DNA of 32,000 nucleotides from Ignicoccus islandicus DSM 13165 (GCF_001481685.1 NZ_CP006867.1:300001-332000), one strand, 5' to 3'. Positions 4,599-8,935 are shown, counted from the stretch's first letter. Numbers and translations are program-made. Notes: generated by a model from the sequence alone, not told the origin.

Positions 4599-6407
4599 TT
4601 ACTTGATGGTCCGGAGCTCCCCATTGATACCCCTTATCTTCGCCTCCAACATTGCGGCTATCACGTAGCTCTCTTCGGGGCAATCGCTCTGTAGTTCACT
4701 TAAATCAACGCTACACTCCTCGAACACTACCGCGTTCCTCCTAGGATCTAAGTAGACCCTTTCGCTAACTAAGATCCCCTTAGCTTTCTCCAAGTCTTCG
4801 CGGGTCACAGGCCTCTTGAGTACCGAAGCCACCGTTTCCAAATCCAGTTTCCTTAGTGCCTCTTCTATCTCCATTAACCTCTCCTTCGTTAATATCGCTT
4901 TAGACCACTCGAGGGCTAAGTCTAAATCACCTCCTCCGTACTCCAGCTTCCTCTCCCTTATCCTGACGAGAGCGGGCTTGGGTACTACTGGTCCAACTAT
5001 CATTGCCATACCGGGCTTCAACGAAGGTAAATCGCTAGCTAAAGCCGCTCCAAGCTCTTCCGAGGATTCAATTACCACTTGCTGATCCTTCGGATTAACT
5101 ATTCTCAATATTATCTGAGATTGGCATTGGCTCAAGACCGTTTGATCTACTCTGCTAGGTCTTTGGGTAATGACTGTCAAGAACACTCCGAACTTCCTTC
5201 CTTCTGAGGCTATTCTCTTTATCATTGATGTGGTCCAAGGACTTCCTTCGGATGGGGGCGGGGCGAACCTATGCGCTTCTTCCACAATCACTTCTATGGG
5301 GTAGGGGTATTTCTCCCCTTTCAATCTCCTGAGGTGTCTGACTCTCGCATTGAAAATCCTCTTTAAGATATTGTAAACTAAGTGTACTTGGACCTCTTCC
5401 CTTATTCCGCTTAAATTGAACACGGTTACTGTGGAGGGCCTCAGGAACGCGCCTATAGGTATGGAGGACGTACCGTATATTCCCAATCTATCTAATTCCT
5501 CTACGTACTTTAGGAGACCGTAAATCACTTCTGCGTTCTTCGCTATTGACGCCCAAACCCTCTTGACCAAATTCTCGTGCACATTTATGTTGCGTGAAGA
5601 GAACAACGCTTGCAATTGCTTGTGAGACGATAGGTTAGCGGCCTCTAGGGTTAGGCTTAACAGTTCCTTCAGCTTCTCCAAGTTCATCCATTGAGGATCT
5701 TTAGTTTGGAAGTACATCTCCTTTGCTATTTCTCGGATCGAGCTCAAGAGGGCTCTTAAGCGGGAGGCGTTCTTCGGAATTCCCATCACGAAGGCGAGCT
5801 CATCGGAATCGACGCTCTTAAGGTCAATAGAGTAGGTTACGTCCCCTTCTTGGTCCGAATGAGCCTTCAGTACTAAGCAAGATCCCCCCACTTCCTCAAC
5901 GTTTTCCCTTATCCTAGCGTATTCCCCATGAGGATCTAACACCAATATAGTGGCGCCCTTCTTCAGTAATTCCTCTATTAAGACTATGGTTGTCCACGTC
6001 TTGCCGGAGCCCGTAGCCGCTATTATCGCTAAGTGCCTCGAGAGAGCGTTTAGGTCTAAGTGAATTGGAACTGTAGGCCTCGAGGCGAGGAAGCCAACGT
6101 GGAGCGCCCTATTGGATGGAACGGCGTATAGGGATGCTACGTCGCTATCGCTGGCTCTATAAACCCAAGAGCCGACTCTAGGCGTACCTTCGGAGACGAT
6201 CCTAACTCTAGCCACTGTAACGGTCGTCTTCTCGTTTATTGGTACCTCCGTGGCCACGTTCCACGGTAATTCACTATAGAGCAAGGGCCTCGATCTCACG
6301 CTCTCGACGTATCCCATCACTTTGAAACCGTTCTCATCGATAAAGTAAACGAAGTCGTATTTAGAAGGCTTAACGTCGCTAGATATTACCATTGAATAGC
6401 TGTCCAA
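4599..6407 (-). CDS. HerA-like (DUF87, FtsK/HerA superfamily) ATPase with an N-terminal HAS-barrel and a ~120-aa C-terminal extension
   Basis: Walker A IAATGSGKTWTT followed by ILVLDPHGEY; Walker B region VIVEEAHRF; ITQRPSRVD. The conserved N-terminal strand ITSPIGRVIEVDG is encoded in frame upstream of the listed TTG start but has no start codon (see findings). Confidence 0.8.
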   Translation of the reverse strand: MDSYSMVISSDVKPSKYDFVYFIDENGFKVMGYVESVRSRPLLYSELPWNVATEVPINEKTTVTVARVRIVSEGTPRVGSWVYRASDSDVASLYAVPSNRALHVGFLASRPTVPIHLDLNALSRHLAIIAATGSGKTWTTIVLIEELLKKGATILVLDPHGEYARIRENVEEVGGSCLVLKAHSDQEGDVTYSIDLKSVDSDELAFVMGIPKNASRLRALLSSIREIAKEMYFQTKDPQWMNLEKLKELLSLTLEAANLSSHKQLQALFSSRNINVHENLVKRVWASIAKNAEVIYGLLKYVEELDRLGIYGTSSIPIGAFLRPSTVTVFNLSGIREEVQVHLVYNILKRIFNARVRHLRRLKGEKYPYPIEVIVEEAHRFAPPPSEGSPWTTSMIKRIASEGRKFGVFLTVITQRPSRVDQTVLSQCQSQIILRIVNPKDQQVVIESSEELGAALASDLPSLKPGMAMIVGPVVPKPALVRIRERKLEYGGGDLDLALEWSKAILTKERLMEIEEALRKLDLETVASVLKRPVTREDLEKAKGILVSERVYLDPRRNAVVFEECSVDLSELQSDCPEESYVIAAMLEAKIRGINGELRTIK

Positions 6408-6491
6408 TCCATCTACTTCTATTACCCTCCCAATAGGCGAAGTTATTCCATCTCCCTCAAGCTACGCTCGGAAGATCGCTTAAAAGACGAC

Positions 6492-6854
6492 TTACTCTTT
6501 AGAGAGCATCTCGTATAGCTCTCTTAAGCTATCCCTCTTCTTAGGCTTGCCCTCCACTTCCGTCTCCGCGAGGGCTTCCACGACGCTCTTCCTCTTCTCC
6601 GTTACGCACTTCTCCACGTCTTCAGACTTCACGCAATCCCTTACGTTCAATATAACTGCGTAGTACTCAACGTTCTCAGCCCCCGGTATCGAGTCGAACT
6701 GGGATCGACCTAATTTGGCTATTCTCAACGTGTTCCTTAAATGGGCTATTTCCAAGAGTTCTTCGACGTCCTTGAGTAAGTCCTCCTCAAATATAAAGAA
6801 GCCGAAGGACTCGAACGCCTTCCTCATTCTTTCTCTTAACTCCTTCATTTCCAT
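6492..6854 (-). CDS. Hypothetical 120-aa protein in the same operon
   Basis: ATG preceded by GAGGTG, 14 nt after the radical SAM stop codon. No family recognised. Confidence 0.55.
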   Translation of the reverse strand: MEMKELRERMRKAFESFGFFIFEEDLLKDVEELLEIAHLRNTLRIAKLGRSQFDSIPGAENVEYYAVILNVRDCVKSEDVEKCVTEKRKSVVEALAETEVEGKPKKRDSLRELYEMLSKE

Positions 6855-8020: not shown

Positions 8021-8781
8021 TGCGCCGTTCTTCCATATAGCTCAATGCCCTCGATTCGTTCCACTCGAACGTCTTCCAAGGCATAGTAGTCTATTAGGTA
8101 AGAAGTTGCTCTCGAAACTTCCTTCAAGTAACCCTTCTTTACTAATCTTTCCAAGGCGTTCCTTCCGTCCACTGCACCAGGGGCAACGGAAATCACCGTT
8201 CCGTTTAGACAGATGAAAGACAATATTGGATTACCTTTTCCGAAATGGAAGTATATCCCGTTGTTACATCTACCTTGAGCTATCGAAACGGTAGCTTTCA
8301 ATCTCCTCGGTTCCTTCAAGTTAAGCAACTTAGATAGAACGGGATAGGGTGCTGTCCACACCAGCTCCTCGAACTCCAATTGCCTTAATCCGCTCAAGTA
8401 TACCTTACCCTCTTCTAAGTCTATTCTCTTTAACTTCGAATTAAGTAACCTCAAGTTCTTGGGTTCTACTTTCAATCGAGTAACTAGGTACCACTTGTCC
8501 CTTTCCAACCATCTGAGAGGCCACGGTTTTTGGCAATTGAAATTTCCGCAAGCCTTCTCCTCAGCATCGCCTTCCTTAACTACTCCTTCAACTTGCAGTT
8601 CAACGCATTCGCTCTCTGGAGGACATCTCTCGACGAGAATCGGGACGAGGGGGAGCTCTTTATCGCCTATTTCGACCTTCCTTAAGGGAAGGGGAGGCAA
8701 GCCCACGGGATCAATTACTATCGAATTGGGAAAACAATAGGAAGCGAGCGTGTGACCGATTACCACTCTAACTTTCTCCAA
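7978..8781 (-). CDS. Hypothetical 267-aa protein with a 4-Cys cluster
   Basis: CPPESEC ... CGNFNC suggests a zinc site. TTG start with a weak ribosome-binding context. It may be the C-terminal part of a longer protein joined to the 53-aa ORF upstream (see findings). Confidence 0.55.
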   Translation of the reverse strand: MEKVRVVIGHTLASYCFPNSIVIDPVGLPPLPLRKVEIGDKELPLVPILVERCPPESECVELQVEGVVKEGDAEEKACGNFNCQKPWPLRWLERDKWYLVTRLKVEPKNLRLLNSKLKRIDLEEGKVYLSGLRQLEFEELVWTAPYPVLSKLLNLKEPRRLKATVSIAQGRCNNGIYFHFGKGNPILSFICLNGTVISVAPGAVDGRNALERLVKKGYLKEVSRATSYLIDYYALEDVRVERIEGIELYGRTAQWKEMGLEDVMKCA

Positions 8782-8935
8782 CGGCTACCCCGTCTTCCCT
8801 AAGAAAAACTCTACTTATTCCAAGCTCTCTCATCAAGTTAGCTATTACTCCTAACTTAGCAGCTAATTCCTCAACGTCCTTGCCTTCCGCTTCCTCTACT
8901 TCAACGGGTAACCCGTCGTAAGCGACGACCCTCAT
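8774..8935 (-). CDS. Small 53-aa ORF, too short for the ORF track; first gene of the cluster or the N-terminus of the 267-aa protein
   Basis: ATG at 8935 is preceded by GAGGA (tatcGAGGAaccATG). It reads MRVVAYDGLPVEVEEAEGKDVEELAAKLGVIANLMRELGISRVFLREDGVAVGES and overlaps the TTG at 8781 by 8 nt. Confidence 0.4.

What the first reader, a model, noticed from the sequence alone, without database searches (positions are those of the whole stretch)
4599..8935. Same-strand cluster linking a COG1533-type radical SAM enzyme, a HerA-like ATPase and three uncharacterised proteins
Seen: five minus-strand ORFs with overlaps or short gaps (8-nt overlap; ~10-nt overlap; 14 nt; 40-84 nt), consistent with one operon. 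Order: 53 aa, 267 aa with a CPPESEC...CGNFNC cluster, radical SAM (CDLGCVYC), 120 aa, HerA-like ATPase (HAS-barrel, Walker A/B, extra C-terminal domain). No NurA, Mre11 or Rad50 partner is present. Established: HerA-family ATPases act as partners of effector proteins in known anti-phage systems (Sir2-HerA, DUF4297-HerA), and radical SAM enzymes can be antiviral effectors (viperins). Inference: next to a cmr locus, a tRNA gene and toxin-antitoxin debris, this could be an undescribed DNA-transaction or defence module. It could also be two unrelated housekeeping units that happen to be adjacent.
Basis: partly seen in the sequence, partly recalled or inferred. Interest (0 to 1): 0.7.

Follow-up and report, generated by a model that had tools for sequence, protein, structure and literature searches.

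The report
Repair helicase beside radical-SAM gene unit
The five neighbouring genes are real, but they are two separate housekeeping units that sit together only in Ignicoccus islandicus and its closest relative: the organism's ordinary DNA-break-repair motor HerA, and a four-gene unit built around an uncharacterised archaeal radical-SAM enzyme. They are not a new anti-virus system.

Summary
The window is Ignicoccus islandicus DSM 13165. All five minus-strand ORFs exist as described: 55, 267, 372/383, 120 and 597/602 aa.

The five-gene linkage is not conserved:
- In I. pacificus, 57aa-267aa-rSAM plus an uncalled 120-aa homologue form a four-gene unit. The HerA orthologue lies about 850 kb away.
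- In three other Ignicoccus-group genomes, HerA is followed by a TackOD1 zinc-ribbon gene. In two of them it lies about 5.7 kb from rad50.
- The window HerA belongs to the clade of the operonic HerA in Pyrobaculum (NurA-HerA-Mre11-Rad50) and Vulcanisaeta (HerA-Mre11-Rad50). It is most likely the canonical DSB-repair HerA, detached from its partners, not a defence HerA.

The rSAM belongs to a widespread hyperthermophile-archaeal branch of the COG1533 (PA0069/Rv2578c/SplB-like) superfamily:
- It has four invariant cysteines beyond CxxxCxxC.
- Its neighbours vary: KaiC-like ATPase, MJ1316 RNA-end domain, UDG, EndoIII, the p120 family. In one second, distant lineage the neighbour is NurA-HerA.

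p267 has a degenerate flavoprotein-like fold with a Cys4 insert. p120 and p55 stay unassigned.

No neighbour matches any defence model. A loose DNA-repair link between the rSAM and HerA remains possible.

The parts
8768..8935 (-). p55: small protein of unknown function, first gene of the rSAM unit. It overlaps the p267 start by 14 nt.
   Evidence: ORF. Homologues directly upstream of p267 in I. pacificus (47% id) and in MAG L009 (76% id). No family match above threshold.
7978..8781 (-). p267: degenerate flavoprotein-like (two-dinucleotide-binding-domain) fold with a Cys4 insert (C53, C59, C78, C83). The strong homologues come from the Ignicoccus group: named species plus unnamed MAG and metagenome proteins.
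   Evidence: Six word-search homologues, the named ones all Ignicoccus. Exhaustive profile search gave 15 hits, of which 4 were strong. AF2 model pLDDT 85.6, pTM 0.81. Foldseek top hits are PF1083/3nrn at E 7e-10, then amine oxidase, PPO, UGM and renalase, TMq 0.5-0.66. Remote relatives carry GSG/GAG Rossmann motifs.
8533..8625 (-). Cys4 insert of p267 (CPPESEC...CGNFNC). It is invariant in the six Ignicoccus-group homologues aligned and absent from the remote flavoprotein-like relatives.
   Evidence: Alignments A1 and A5. Coordinates.
6869..7987 (-). Radical SAM enzyme (372 aa; the longest ORF reaches 8020). Member of an uncharacterised archaeal branch of the COG1533 (PA0069/Rv2578c/SplB-like) superfamily.
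   Evidence: PF04055 at 33.3 bits. All 25 family members hit NCBIfam PA0069 and Rv2578c models weakly. Orthologues at 32-80% identity in 40+ loci. Invariant C36, C46, C50, C53, C282, C293, C304.
7829..7852 (-). CxxxCxxC radical-SAM cluster motif (CDLGCVYC).
   Evidence: Invariant in alignment A6.
6492..6854 (-). p120: small alpha/beta protein of unknown function, last gene of the rSAM unit (GFFIFE and YY motifs, two conserved Cys).
   Evidence: Homologue directly after the rSAM in I. pacificus (uncalled ORF L004 11919-12308, 43% id, E 6e-18), in L009, in L016 (34% id) and in L019/L020. AF2 pLDDT 79. No structural match, best E 0.18.
6408..6491 (-). Intergenic spacer between p120 and HerA. It holds a TTTTAAG TATA-like element and a GGAGGG motif, so HerA may have its own promoter. 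It marks the junction between the two units.
   Evidence: Sequence read. The same ~99-nt spacer is present in L009. Inference only.
4599..6407 (-). HerA ATPase (FtsK-HerA superfamily). Orthologue of the HerA encoded in the NurA-HerA-Mre11-Rad50 operons of Thermoproteales; here detached from those partners.
   Evidence: DUF87 E 1.7e-34. PDB HerA 4d2i E 3e-45. 43% id to P. neutrophilum P0108 in NurA-HerA-Mre11-Rad50. 39% id to V. distributa P0098 in HerA-Mre11-Rad50. 42% id to Pyrolobus P0080 after NurA. NCBIfam scores equal those of the operonic HerAs.
5997..6011 (-). Walker A (GSGKT) of HerA.
8936..9077 (.). Divergent intergenic region between p55 and the cimA/leuA-like gene. TATA-like boxes (ATTTAAAAG, CTATATAAAG) make it the likely promoter of the rSAM unit.
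   Evidence: Sequence read. Inference only.
3771..3849 (+). tRNA-Gly(GCC), 750 nt beyond the HerA stop. Synteny with the sister MAG L009 ends somewhere between the HerA stop and this flank.
   Evidence: Downstream of HerA, L009 carries different genes (membrane protein, PmbA/TldD, Nuo).

Best explanation
Two independent housekeeping units have become neighbours in the I. islandicus lineage.

**Unit 1: p55-p267-rSAM-p120.**
- Its core is a conserved archaeal radical SAM enzyme of the COG1533 (SplB/PA0069/Rv2578c-like) superfamily.
- The enzyme would cleave SAM at its CxxxCxxC [4Fe-4S] cluster to make a 5'-deoxyadenosyl radical.
- Four further invariant cysteines suggest a second metal or Fe-S site.
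- It most likely acts on a nucleic-acid substrate. DNA-lesion repair is favoured. This step is inferred.
- p267 is a degenerate flavoprotein-fold protein with a Cys4 insert. It may be a redox or structural accessory.
- p55 and p120 are small accessory proteins restricted to Ignicoccus and related Desulfurococcales.

**Unit 2: HerA.**
- This is the hexameric FtsK/HerA-type DNA translocase that elsewhere works with NurA, Mre11 and Rad50 in double-strand-break end resection.
- In Ignicoccus it has been separated from those genes.
- In other Ignicoccus-group genomes it is paired with a TackOD1 zinc-ribbon protein. In two of them it lies about 5.7 kb from rad50.
- In the I. islandicus lineage it was relocated, without TackOD1, to just downstream of the rSAM unit.

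Shown: gene content, orthology groups, and non-conservation of the linkage. Inferred: the substrate of the rSAM, the role of p267, and separate transcription.
For: **Linkage is not conserved.**
- The full five-gene order occurs only in I. islandicus and one close MAG, where HerA is 82% identical.
- I. pacificus keeps 57aa-267aa-rSAM plus an uncalled p120 homologue between hemD and secY. Its HerA (63% id) is about 850 kb away, followed by TackOD1 and about 5.7 kb from rad50.
- MAG GCA_054016855.1 shows the same HerA-TackOD1 and Rad50 synteny. MAG GCA_054016835.1 shows HerA-TackOD1.

**HerA is the canonical type.**
- P. neutrophilum has NurA-HerA-Mre11-Rad50. V. distributa has HerA-Mre11-Rad50. 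Pyrolobus has NurA-HerA. MAG L059 has HerA 1.6 kb from Rad50.
- In an NCBIfam control, these operonic HerAs score 185-228 bits on the HerA_Thermprot model, as does the window protein at 187 bits.

**The rSAM is a widespread family with changing neighbours.**
- 42 loci fall into 31 groups at under 80% identity.
- Recurrent neighbours are KaiC-like ATPase upstream (7 loci), an MJ1316 RNA-end domain protein downstream (6 loci), the p120 family (5 loci plus the window), EndoIII (L018/21/22) and UDG (L017).
- All 25 aligned members hit PA0069 and Rv2578c models.
- Bacterial SplB-like rSAM enzymes are reported to be linked with SOS-repair genes and UDGs (PMC3765255).

**No defence signal.** PADLOC gives no hits for p55, p267, rSAM or p120. 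Plasmid and phage collections give only ~26%-identity matches: bacterial plasmid records (one annotated PA0069 family) and one phage record.
Against: - Same strand, short spacers and identical order in two genomes would allow read-through transcription of all five genes. No transcript data are available.
- An rSAM of the same family lies directly downstream of a NurA-HerA pair in a second, distant lineage (L039; also L048 with one intervening gene). That is more than the roughly 1% per-lineage chance expectation (post-hoc P about 0.01-0.04), so a functional link is not excluded.
- I could not search the whole I. islandicus genome. A second, more Sulfolobus-like HerA elsewhere cannot be ruled out.
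- The DNA-repair assignment of the rSAM rests on weak superfamily matches and on guilt by association. RNA-related neighbours (MJ1316 domain, ThiI, ThrRS) point the other way.
Confidence: 0.7

Rival explanations
1. A loose DNA-repair supra-operon. The rSAM unit and HerA are functionally connected. For example, the rSAM reverses or processes a DNA lesion, and HerA (with a nuclease encoded elsewhere) resects or translocates the damaged DNA. Selection would then favour their co-location and co-expression.
For: - There are two independent juxtapositions of a HerA-family gene with this rSAM family on the same strand: the I. islandicus clade and L039/L048, which show NurA-HerA-(x)-rSAM-MJ1316.
- The nominal binomial P is about 0.01-0.04.
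- Other rSAM orthologues abut the DNA glycosylases UDG and EndoIII.
- Bacterial SplB-like rSAMs are tied to SOS-repair neighbourhoods.
Against: - In about 27 of 31 rSAM groups no HerA is nearby.
- In the closest outgroup species the two genes are 850 kb apart.
- Gene order differs between the two cases: HerA is downstream in one and upstream in the other. L048 has an opposite-strand gene in between.
- The L039 HerA is a very divergent family member, at 65 bits on the HerA model.
- The statistic is post hoc.
Confidence: 0.17
2. The rSAM unit acts on RNA (tRNA/rRNA modification or RNA repair) rather than DNA. HerA is an unrelated neighbour.
For: - An MJ1316 'RNA cyclic group end recognition' domain protein lies directly downstream of the rSAM in 6 loci.
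- ThiI-like and ThrRS genes are nearby (the ThiI and ThrRS labels are my reading of the sequences).
- p267 homologues sit beside an RsmB/F m5C methyltransferase in I. hospitalis and in a MAG.
- Many archaeal rSAM enzymes modify tRNA (general knowledge).
Against: - The nearest recognisable families are the SplB/PA0069/Rv2578c group, whose only characterised member repairs DNA.
- UDG, EndoIII and NurA-HerA neighbours occur in other lineages.
- The RsmB/F adjacency is divergent in orientation and concerns p267, not the rSAM.
Confidence: 0.1
3. A novel anti-virus defence module. HerA would be the ATPase scaffold, as in Sir2-HerA or DUF4297-HerA, and the rSAM (viperin-like) and the unknown proteins would be the effectors.
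For: - HerA matches PADLOC and NCBIfam anti-phage HerA models at E 1e-29 to 3e-55.
- A Cmr3 fragment and a tRNA gene lie 0.75-3.9 kb downstream.
Against: - Those matches reflect generic HerA homology. The DSB-repair HerA models score higher: 225 and 187 bits against 120 and 100.
- No effector-type domain and no PADLOC hit in any neighbour.
- Orthologues lie in conserved housekeeping synteny near rad50 or inside NurA-Mre11-Rad50 operons.
- The rSAM is a conserved family in housekeeping contexts. It has no match to any PADLOC model and no close relative in the phage or plasmid collections.
- The cmr-side flank is not shared with the sister MAG.
Confidence: 0.03

Closest known systems
Archaeal DSB-repair HerA (herA-mre11-rad50-nurA operon; S. 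solfataricus HerA PDB 4d2i; Thermoproteales HerA)
   Same: - DUF87 RecA-like core with Walker A/B and a weak HAS-barrel N-terminus.
- 39-43% identity to HerA proteins encoded inside NurA/Mre11/Rad50 operons of Pyrobaculum and Vulcanisaeta.
- The same ~80-aa C-terminal extension beyond the core as P. neutrophilum HerA.
   Different: - No NurA, Mre11 or Rad50 in the window.
- In sister species the immediate partner is a TackOD1 zinc-ribbon protein instead of NurA.
- Scores far below the NCBIfam equivalog cutoffs, as the Thermoproteales operonic HerAs also do.
Spore photoproduct lyase / SplB-like COG1533 radical SAM proteins (NCBIfam PA0069, Rv2578c, rSAM_mob_pairB, TIGR04070)
   Same: - CxxxCxxC radical SAM core.
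- Weak but consistent matches of all 25 family members to PA0069 and Rv2578c models.
- Occasional adjacency to DNA glycosylases, as reported for bacterial SplB-like genes.
   Different: - Scores of 16-47 bits against cutoffs of 360-430. No PDB sequence match, even with a 25-sequence profile.
- Four extra invariant Cys (C36, C282, C293, C304) and a conserved C-terminal AYRRQV-type tail.
- The host lives in dark, anoxic hydrothermal systems, so the classical UV spore photoproduct is an unlikely substrate (inference).
Anti-phage HerA systems (Sir2-HerA, DUF4297-HerA)
   Same: A HerA-family ATPase next to uncharacterised genes, with weak matches to anti-phage HerA models.
   Different: No SIR2, DUF4297 or other effector. 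A conserved, non-sporadic orthologue set in housekeeping or DSB-repair synteny. DSB-repair HerA models score higher.
Small FAD-dependent oxidoreductases of the amine-oxidase/PPO/renalase fold (e.g. P. furiosus PF1083, PDB 3nrn)
   Same: - The predicted p267 fold matches at Foldseek E 7e-10 to 1e-6, TMq 0.5-0.66.
- Conserved G9 and an acidic D24 at the end of strand 2.
- Remote sequence relatives carry GSG/GAG motifs and NAD_binding_8/Amino_oxidase matches.
   Different: GxGxxG has degenerated to G-x-T/A-x-x-S/A. The first helix region is shortened. A Cys4 insert is found only in the Ignicoccus-group homologues. At 267 aa it is shorter than typical family members. Flavin binding is unproven.

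Membership tests
HerA (FtsK-HerA superfamily, DSB-repair clade) | RecA-like ATPase core (DUF87) with Walker A and Walker B | tested here: met
   PF01935 E 1.7e-34. GSGKT at aa 133-137 and VIVEEAH at aa 373-379.
HerA (FtsK-HerA superfamily, DSB-repair clade) | N-terminal HAS-barrel domain | tested here: inconclusive
   PF09378 E 0.0023, 18.5 bits against a cutoff of 25.2. Orthologues P0014, P0023 and P0108 carry precomputed HAS-barrel hits.
HerA (FtsK-HerA superfamily, DSB-repair clade) | Orthology with HerA encoded beside NurA/Mre11/Rad50 | tested here: met
   Contexts of homologues in the hit list: NurA-HerA-Mre11-Rad50 in P. neutrophilum, HerA-Mre11-Rad50 in V. distributa, NurA-HerA in Pyrolobus, Rad50 within 1.6-5.7 kb in three Desulfurococcales genomes.
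HerA (FtsK-HerA superfamily, DSB-repair clade) | Adjacent NurA/Mre11/Rad50 in this genome | tested here: not met
   None in the 32-kb window. The rest of the genome could not be searched.
HerA (FtsK-HerA superfamily, DSB-repair clade) | NCBIfam equivalog score cutoff (NF040937 800 bits; NF040819 970 bits) | tested here: not met
   187 and 225 bits. As a control, the operonic HerAs of Pyrobaculum and Vulcanisaeta also reach only 185-228 bits, so the cutoff does not discriminate within this clade.
Anti-phage HerA systems (Sir2-HerA / DUF4297-HerA) | Adjacent SIR2, DUF4297 or another recognised effector gene | tested here: not met
   No PADLOC or Pfam effector match in p55, p267, rSAM or p120.
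Anti-phage HerA systems (Sir2-HerA / DUF4297-HerA) | Sporadic distribution in variable defence islands | tested here: not met
   Orthologues are present across Ignicoccus, Pyrodictiaceae and Thermoproteales in conserved housekeeping or DSB-repair synteny.
Radical SAM superfamily | CxxxCxxC cluster motif and the PF04055 gathering score | tested here: met
   CDLGCVYC at aa 57-64. PF04055 at 33.3 bits against 29.5.
Spore photoproduct lyase (TIGR04070) and the PA0069/Rv2578c families (COG1533) | Equivalog-level sequence score | tested here: not met
   SPL 16 bits against 400. PA0069 47 against 360. Rv2578c 33 against 430. Superfamily-level relatedness only. No PDB sequence hit.
Spore photoproduct lyase (TIGR04070) and the PA0069/Rv2578c families (COG1533) | Repair of 5-thyminyl-5,6-dihydrothymine in DNA | not testable with these tools
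   Needs enzymology.
Viperin-like antiviral radical SAM enzymes | Sequence membership in a PADLOC defence-system model (any model, viperin-type or other) | tested here: not met
   No PADLOC hit for the rSAM at E <= 0.1.
Two-dinucleotide-binding-domain flavoproteins (amine oxidase/PPO/renalase fold), for p267 | Overall fold | tested here: met
   Model pLDDT 85.6. Foldseek E down to 7e-10, probability 1.00, TMq 0.5-0.66.
Two-dinucleotide-binding-domain flavoproteins (amine oxidase/PPO/renalase fold), for p267 | GxGxxG dinucleotide-binding motif | tested here: not met
   The motif reads G9-H-T-L-A-S. The second Gly is T or A in the Ignicoccus-type homologues (F in P0131), while remote relatives keep GSG/GAG.
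Two-dinucleotide-binding-domain flavoproteins (amine oxidase/PPO/renalase fold), for p267 | Bound FAD | not testable with these tools
   Needs purified protein.
Single conserved operon or module of five genes | Linkage conserved in other genomes | tested here: not met
   Five-gene order only in I. islandicus plus one close MAG. HerA is unlinked in I. pacificus and in two MAGs. p267 stands alone in I. hospitalis.
Single conserved operon or module of five genes | Co-transcription | not testable with these tools
   No transcript data. An 84-99-nt spacer with a TATA-like element precedes HerA.

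The most novel reading that the evidence does not exclude
The archaeal COG1533-type rSAM family found here has seven invariant Cys, which implies a second metal or Fe-S site. It could be a radical-based DNA-lesion repair enzyme of hyperthermophiles that works alongside base-excision and end-resection machinery: UDG, EndoIII, NurA-HerA. 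In Ignicoccus it would have acquired dedicated accessory subunits: a flavin-less flavoprotein-fold protein with a Cys4 site, plus p55 and p120. The adjacency to HerA in I. islandicus would then reflect real functional coupling, not chance.
Probability: 0.15. Interest if true: 0.6.

Novelty: new member of a known kind. Interest (0 to 1): 0.3.

Why it matters
As a candidate defence or DNA-transaction module, the cluster does not hold up. That removes a false lead. It also shows that a HerA without NurA, Mre11 or Rad50 beside it is not automatically a defence HerA.

Three points remain of moderate interest:
1. The Ignicoccus group has dispersed the herA-mre11-rad50-nurA operon. In three genomes HerA is paired with a TackOD1 zinc-ribbon protein, a possible substitute partner.
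2. A widely conserved, wholly uncharacterised archaeal branch of SplB-like radical SAM enzymes carries extra invariant cysteines and has nucleic-acid-repair-flavoured neighbours.
3. A flavoprotein fold has lost its GxGxxG motif and gained a Cys4 site.

Each is testable by standard biochemistry.

Tried and rejected
- **Genome scan with the single HerA sequence.** Patterns were too specific and nothing was confirmed.
- **PDB sequence searches.** No hits for the rSAM, p267, or the rSAM profiles of 6 and 25 sequences.
- **p120 structure.** The model was acceptable (pLDDT 79), but Foldseek found no significant match, best E 0.18.
- **p120 as a divergent MJ1316-domain protein.** These occupy the same position downstream of the rSAM in other lineages. 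hhalign gave probability 0.1%, so this was rejected.
- **TackOD1, NurA, or the neighbours of L009/L016 hidden elsewhere in the window.** tblastn found none.
- **The WD40-like 285-aa gene upstream of the rSAM in L016 versus p267 or the beta-propeller-like ORFs at 2915-3725.** No similarity.
- **Mobile-element origin of the rSAM.** Only ~26%-identity matches to bacterial plasmid records (one annotated PA0069 family) and to one phage record.
- **Source names for the remote p267 relatives.** None recorded.
- **Literature.** Nothing on Ignicoccus HerA/Rad50 or PA0069 rSAM in the held library. COG1533 papers were uninformative for archaea.
- **CRISPR array in the left flank.** None in 1-4700.
- **Bacterial promoter/terminator scan.** Not used, because it does not apply to archaea.

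Full report
**Observation.** The window is from Ignicoccus islandicus DSM 13165. The 267-aa protein is EYM_01825 at 100% identity. Five minus-strand ORFs lie at 8768-8935 (55 aa), 7978-8781 (267 aa), 6869-8020 (383 aa as the longest ORF; 372 aa from ATG 7987, as called in public assemblies), 6492-6854 (120 aa) and 4599-6407 (602 aa; 597 aa from ATG 6392). Spacing is a 14-nt overlap, a 10-nt overlap, a 14-nt gap and an 84-99-nt gap. Pfam gives DUF87/HerA at E 1.7e-34 for the large protein and Radical_SAM at 33.3 bits (cutoff 29.5) for the 372/383-aa protein. The other three have no Pfam match above the curated cutoffs and no NCBIfam or PADLOC match of note.

**Is the five-gene linkage conserved?** It is not.
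- The complete order recurs only in one close MAG, GCA_054020855.1, where HerA is 82% and the rSAM 79% identical.
- In I. pacificus the 57-aa, 267-aa and rSAM genes are adjacent, between hemD and secY. tblastn shows an uncalled homologue of the 120-aa protein directly after the rSAM, at L004 11919-12308 (43% identity, E 6e-18).
- So the conserved unit is p55-p267-rSAM-p120, and the 120-aa gene belongs to the rSAM, not to HerA.
- The I. pacificus HerA orthologue (63% identity) lies about 850 kb away.
- In MAG GCA_054016835.1 the p267 homologue and HerA are about 53 kb apart, with no rSAM near either.
- In I. hospitalis the p267 homologue stands alone beside an RsmB/F methyltransferase gene.

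**What the HerA is.** The protein search returned 417 relatives at E <= 1e-20. The named ones among the best 120 come from Ignicoccus, Pyrodictiaceae, Vulcanisaeta, Pyrobaculum and Thermoproteus. Their contexts are decisive:
- P. neutrophilum has NurA-HerA-Mre11-Rad50, with HerA 43% identical to the window protein.
- V. distributa has HerA-Mre11-Rad50, at 39% identity.
- Pyrolobus fumarii has NurA-HerA.
- I. pacificus and MAG GCA_054016855.1 have HerA about 5.7 kb from rad50, on the opposite strand.
- MAG L059 has HerA 1.6 kb from rad50.

The window protein falls far below the NCBIfam HerA equivalog cutoffs, at 187 and 225 bits. The operonic HerAs of Pyrobaculum and Vulcanisaeta do the same, at 185-228 bits, so the cutoffs do not discriminate within this clade. 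Anti-phage HerA models score lower (100-120 bits) than the DSB-repair models. The "extra C-terminal domain" is shared with P. neutrophilum HerA, whose core also ends near residue 525 of 608.

I conclude that this is most likely the Ignicoccus version of the canonical double-strand-break-repair HerA, detached from its usual partners. In three other Ignicoccus-group genomes the gene immediately downstream encodes a TackOD1 (PF18551, E 2.9e-34) cysteine-rich zinc-ribbon protein. That domain was described only as a putative output domain of unknown function (PMC5847659). The I. islandicus lineage lacks it at this position. The arrangement in the window is therefore derived.

**What the rSAM is.** Scans with rSAM alignments recovered 4 genome loci and 38 metagenome loci at 32-67% identity. 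With the Ignicoccus loci they form 31 groups at under 80% identity.
- All 25 aligned full-length members hit the NCBIfam PA0069 and Rv2578c models (best E 4e-16). Twenty hit rSAM_mob_pairB and two hit SP lyase. All scores are far below the cutoffs.
- No solved structure is detectable by sequence, even with the 25-sequence profile.
- This is an uncharacterised archaeal branch of the COG1533 (SplB-like) superfamily.
- Besides the CxxxCxxC triad, four more cysteines are invariant: C36, C282, C293 and C304 in 372-aa numbering. This suggests a second metal or Fe-S site, which is an inference.

Neighbour clustering shows changing partners:
- a KaiC-like ATPase directly upstream (7 loci);
- an MJ1316 RNA-cyclic-end-recognition domain protein directly downstream (6 loci);
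- the p120 family downstream (5 loci plus the window);
- EndoIII directly upstream (L018/21/22);
- a UDG-superfamily gene overlapping the rSAM start (L017);
- a TP_methylase-family gene upstream, with a ThiI-like gene convergent downstream (my reading of the sequence), in L026/28/29.

In one distant lineage the order is NurA-HerA-rSAM-MJ1316 (L039). L048 is the same but with one opposite-strand gene in between. HerA adjacency thus arose twice among roughly 19-30 independent contexts. With a chance expectation of at most about 1% per lineage, that gives a post-hoc P of about 0.01-0.04. This is suggestive but not compelling. Bacterial SplB-like rSAM genes have been reported in SOS-repair neighbourhoods and with UDGs (PMC3765255). 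I therefore favour a DNA-lesion-processing role. The RNA-related neighbours keep an RNA substrate as a live rival.

**The three unknown proteins.**
- **p267.** The word-based search found six homologues, the named ones all Ignicoccus. The exhaustive profile search of 1.84 billion representatives gave 15 hits, of which four were strong. With six sequences, AlphaFold2 gave pLDDT 85.6 and pTM 0.81. Foldseek against the PDB gave PF1083 of P. furiosus (3nrn, E 7e-10), followed by hundreds of FAD-dependent amine oxidase, protoporphyrinogen oxidase, UDP-galactopyranose mutase and renalase structures at TMq 0.5-0.66. The weak sequence relatives (260-350 aa) carry GSG/GAG Rossmann motifs. One hits NAD_binding_8 and Amino_oxidase. 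They share the motifs LKEGD...Q.PWPLRW, WT.P, H.TKAS and GR.A.W.E with p267. The Ignicoccus-type proteins keep G9 and D24, but they have lost the second glycine and part of the first helix, and they have gained four invariant cysteines. p267 is therefore a degenerate flavoprotein-fold protein. Acting as an electron-transfer or structural accessory to the rSAM is plausible but unproven. It also occurs without an adjacent rSAM. In the sister MAG it carries an in-frame stop.
- **p120.** The model is an alpha/beta protein at pLDDT 79, with no structural neighbour. It is unrelated to the MJ1316 proteins. Its relatives in I. pacificus and L016 have four to five clustered Cys, where I. islandicus keeps two.
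- **p55.** It has no informative match.

**Context and the defence hypothesis.** To the right lie cimA/leuA-like, PEMT, GATase, MFS, ClC, aminotransferase, class II aminoacyl-tRNA synthetase, TYW3, PurT, TmcA and PIN-domain ribonuclease genes, which are core genome. To the left lie a 750-nt gap with only small ORFs, tRNA-Gly, two beta-propeller-like ORFs, an unknown 285-aa ORF and a Cmr3 C-terminal fragment, with no CRISPR array. The sister MAG has different genes downstream of HerA, so HerA sits at a synteny breakpoint. Proximity to cmr is not a property of the cluster. No neighbour matches any PADLOC model, and the rSAM has no close relative on plasmids or phages.

**Verdict.** The cluster is a lineage-specific juxtaposition of the canonical HerA with a four-gene unit built around an uncharacterised SplB-like radical SAM enzyme. 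It is not a conserved five-gene module and not a defence system. The residual interest lies in the uncharacterised rSAM family, the degenerate flavoprotein-fold partner, and the HerA-TackOD1 pairing outside this window.

Noticed in passing
L011 8001-11198; L012 8001-11061; L060 8001-11184: In I. pacificus and two Ignicoccus-group MAGs, HerA is followed 13-37 nt later by a 403-440-aa TackOD1 (PF18551) cysteine-rich zinc-ribbon protein. In the two sequences read (L011, L012) its acidic tail carries repeated [DE]EFFG motifs ending in DEFFGG. No NurA is adjacent. It could be a lineage-specific HerA partner replacing NurA. It is absent from the I. islandicus window.
   Followed up: partly
L004 11919-12308: I. 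pacificus has an unannotated ORF homologous to the 120-aa protein (43% id, E 6e-18) directly after its rSAM gene. The public gene calls miss it.
   Followed up: yes
L009 2802-3605: The p267 orthologue of the sister MAG GCA_054020855.1 has a single in-frame stop codon (…GEGNPVI*FVCVDG…). This is either a pseudogene or an assembly error.
   Followed up: partly
L039 3119-7372; L048 17-4666: In a distant metagenomic archaeal lineage the order is NurA - HerA (537 aa, very divergent) - rSAM of the same family - MJ1316-domain protein, all on one strand. This is a second, independent HerA/rSAM juxtaposition. L039 also ends in what looks like a CRISPR array: the translated ORFs at about 11.0-12.3 kb repeat the same peptide.
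   Followed up: partly
L037, L041, L042, L044, L049, L052, L055: Recurrent synteny of (PfkB-like kinase) - ThrRS or a small ORF - KaiC-like ATPase - rSAM - MJ1316 domain protein - GAPDH in several metagenomic lineages. KaiC-like plus rSAM plus MJ1316 may be the more typical functional trio for this rSAM family. The PfkB, ThrRS and GAPDH labels are my reading of the sequences.
   Followed up: partly
L017 6572-8267; L018 7225-9137: rSAM orthologues lie directly downstream of DNA glycosylase genes on the same strand. In L017 this is a UDG-superfamily gene that overlaps the rSAM start. In L018 it is an EndoIII/HhH-GPD gene.
   Followed up: partly
window 6869-7987 (alignment A6): Across 25 family members, four cysteines outside the CxxxCxxC motif are invariant: C36, C282, C293 and C304 in 372-aa numbering. 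A C-terminal AYRR/K-type motif is also conserved. This suggests an auxiliary metal or Fe-S site.
   Followed up: partly
window 2915-3725: Two overlapping plus-strand ORFs of 131 and 141 aa have faint beta-propeller similarity. They may be one split or frameshifted gene, located between the Cmr3 fragment and tRNA-Gly.
   Followed up: no
window 57-716 and 717-1456: A C-terminal Cmr3 fragment (PADLOC E 2e-7) is followed by about 740 nt without an ORF of 60 aa or more. No CRISPR repeats were detected in 1-4700.
   Followed up: partly
window 4384-4533: A 49-aa plus-strand ORF (MIRDELGRSSKYVIVDLDQKGNIIGIEILDY…) is convergent with the HerA 3' end. It has no PADLOC match.
   Followed up: partly
L005 8981-10777; L008 9019-10834: In I. 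hospitalis and MAG GCA_054016835.1 the p267 homologue is divergently adjacent (20-40 nt) to an RsmB/F-type m5C methyltransferase gene rather than to the rSAM.
   Followed up: no
L011 1-5297; L060 1-5300: Near rad50 in I. pacificus and in a MAG there is a 654-658-aa DUF460 protein, plus RIO2 kinase and a PDDEXK_19-HTH protein. No mre11 or herA is adjacent to rad50, so the classical operon is dispersed in this group.
   Followed up: no
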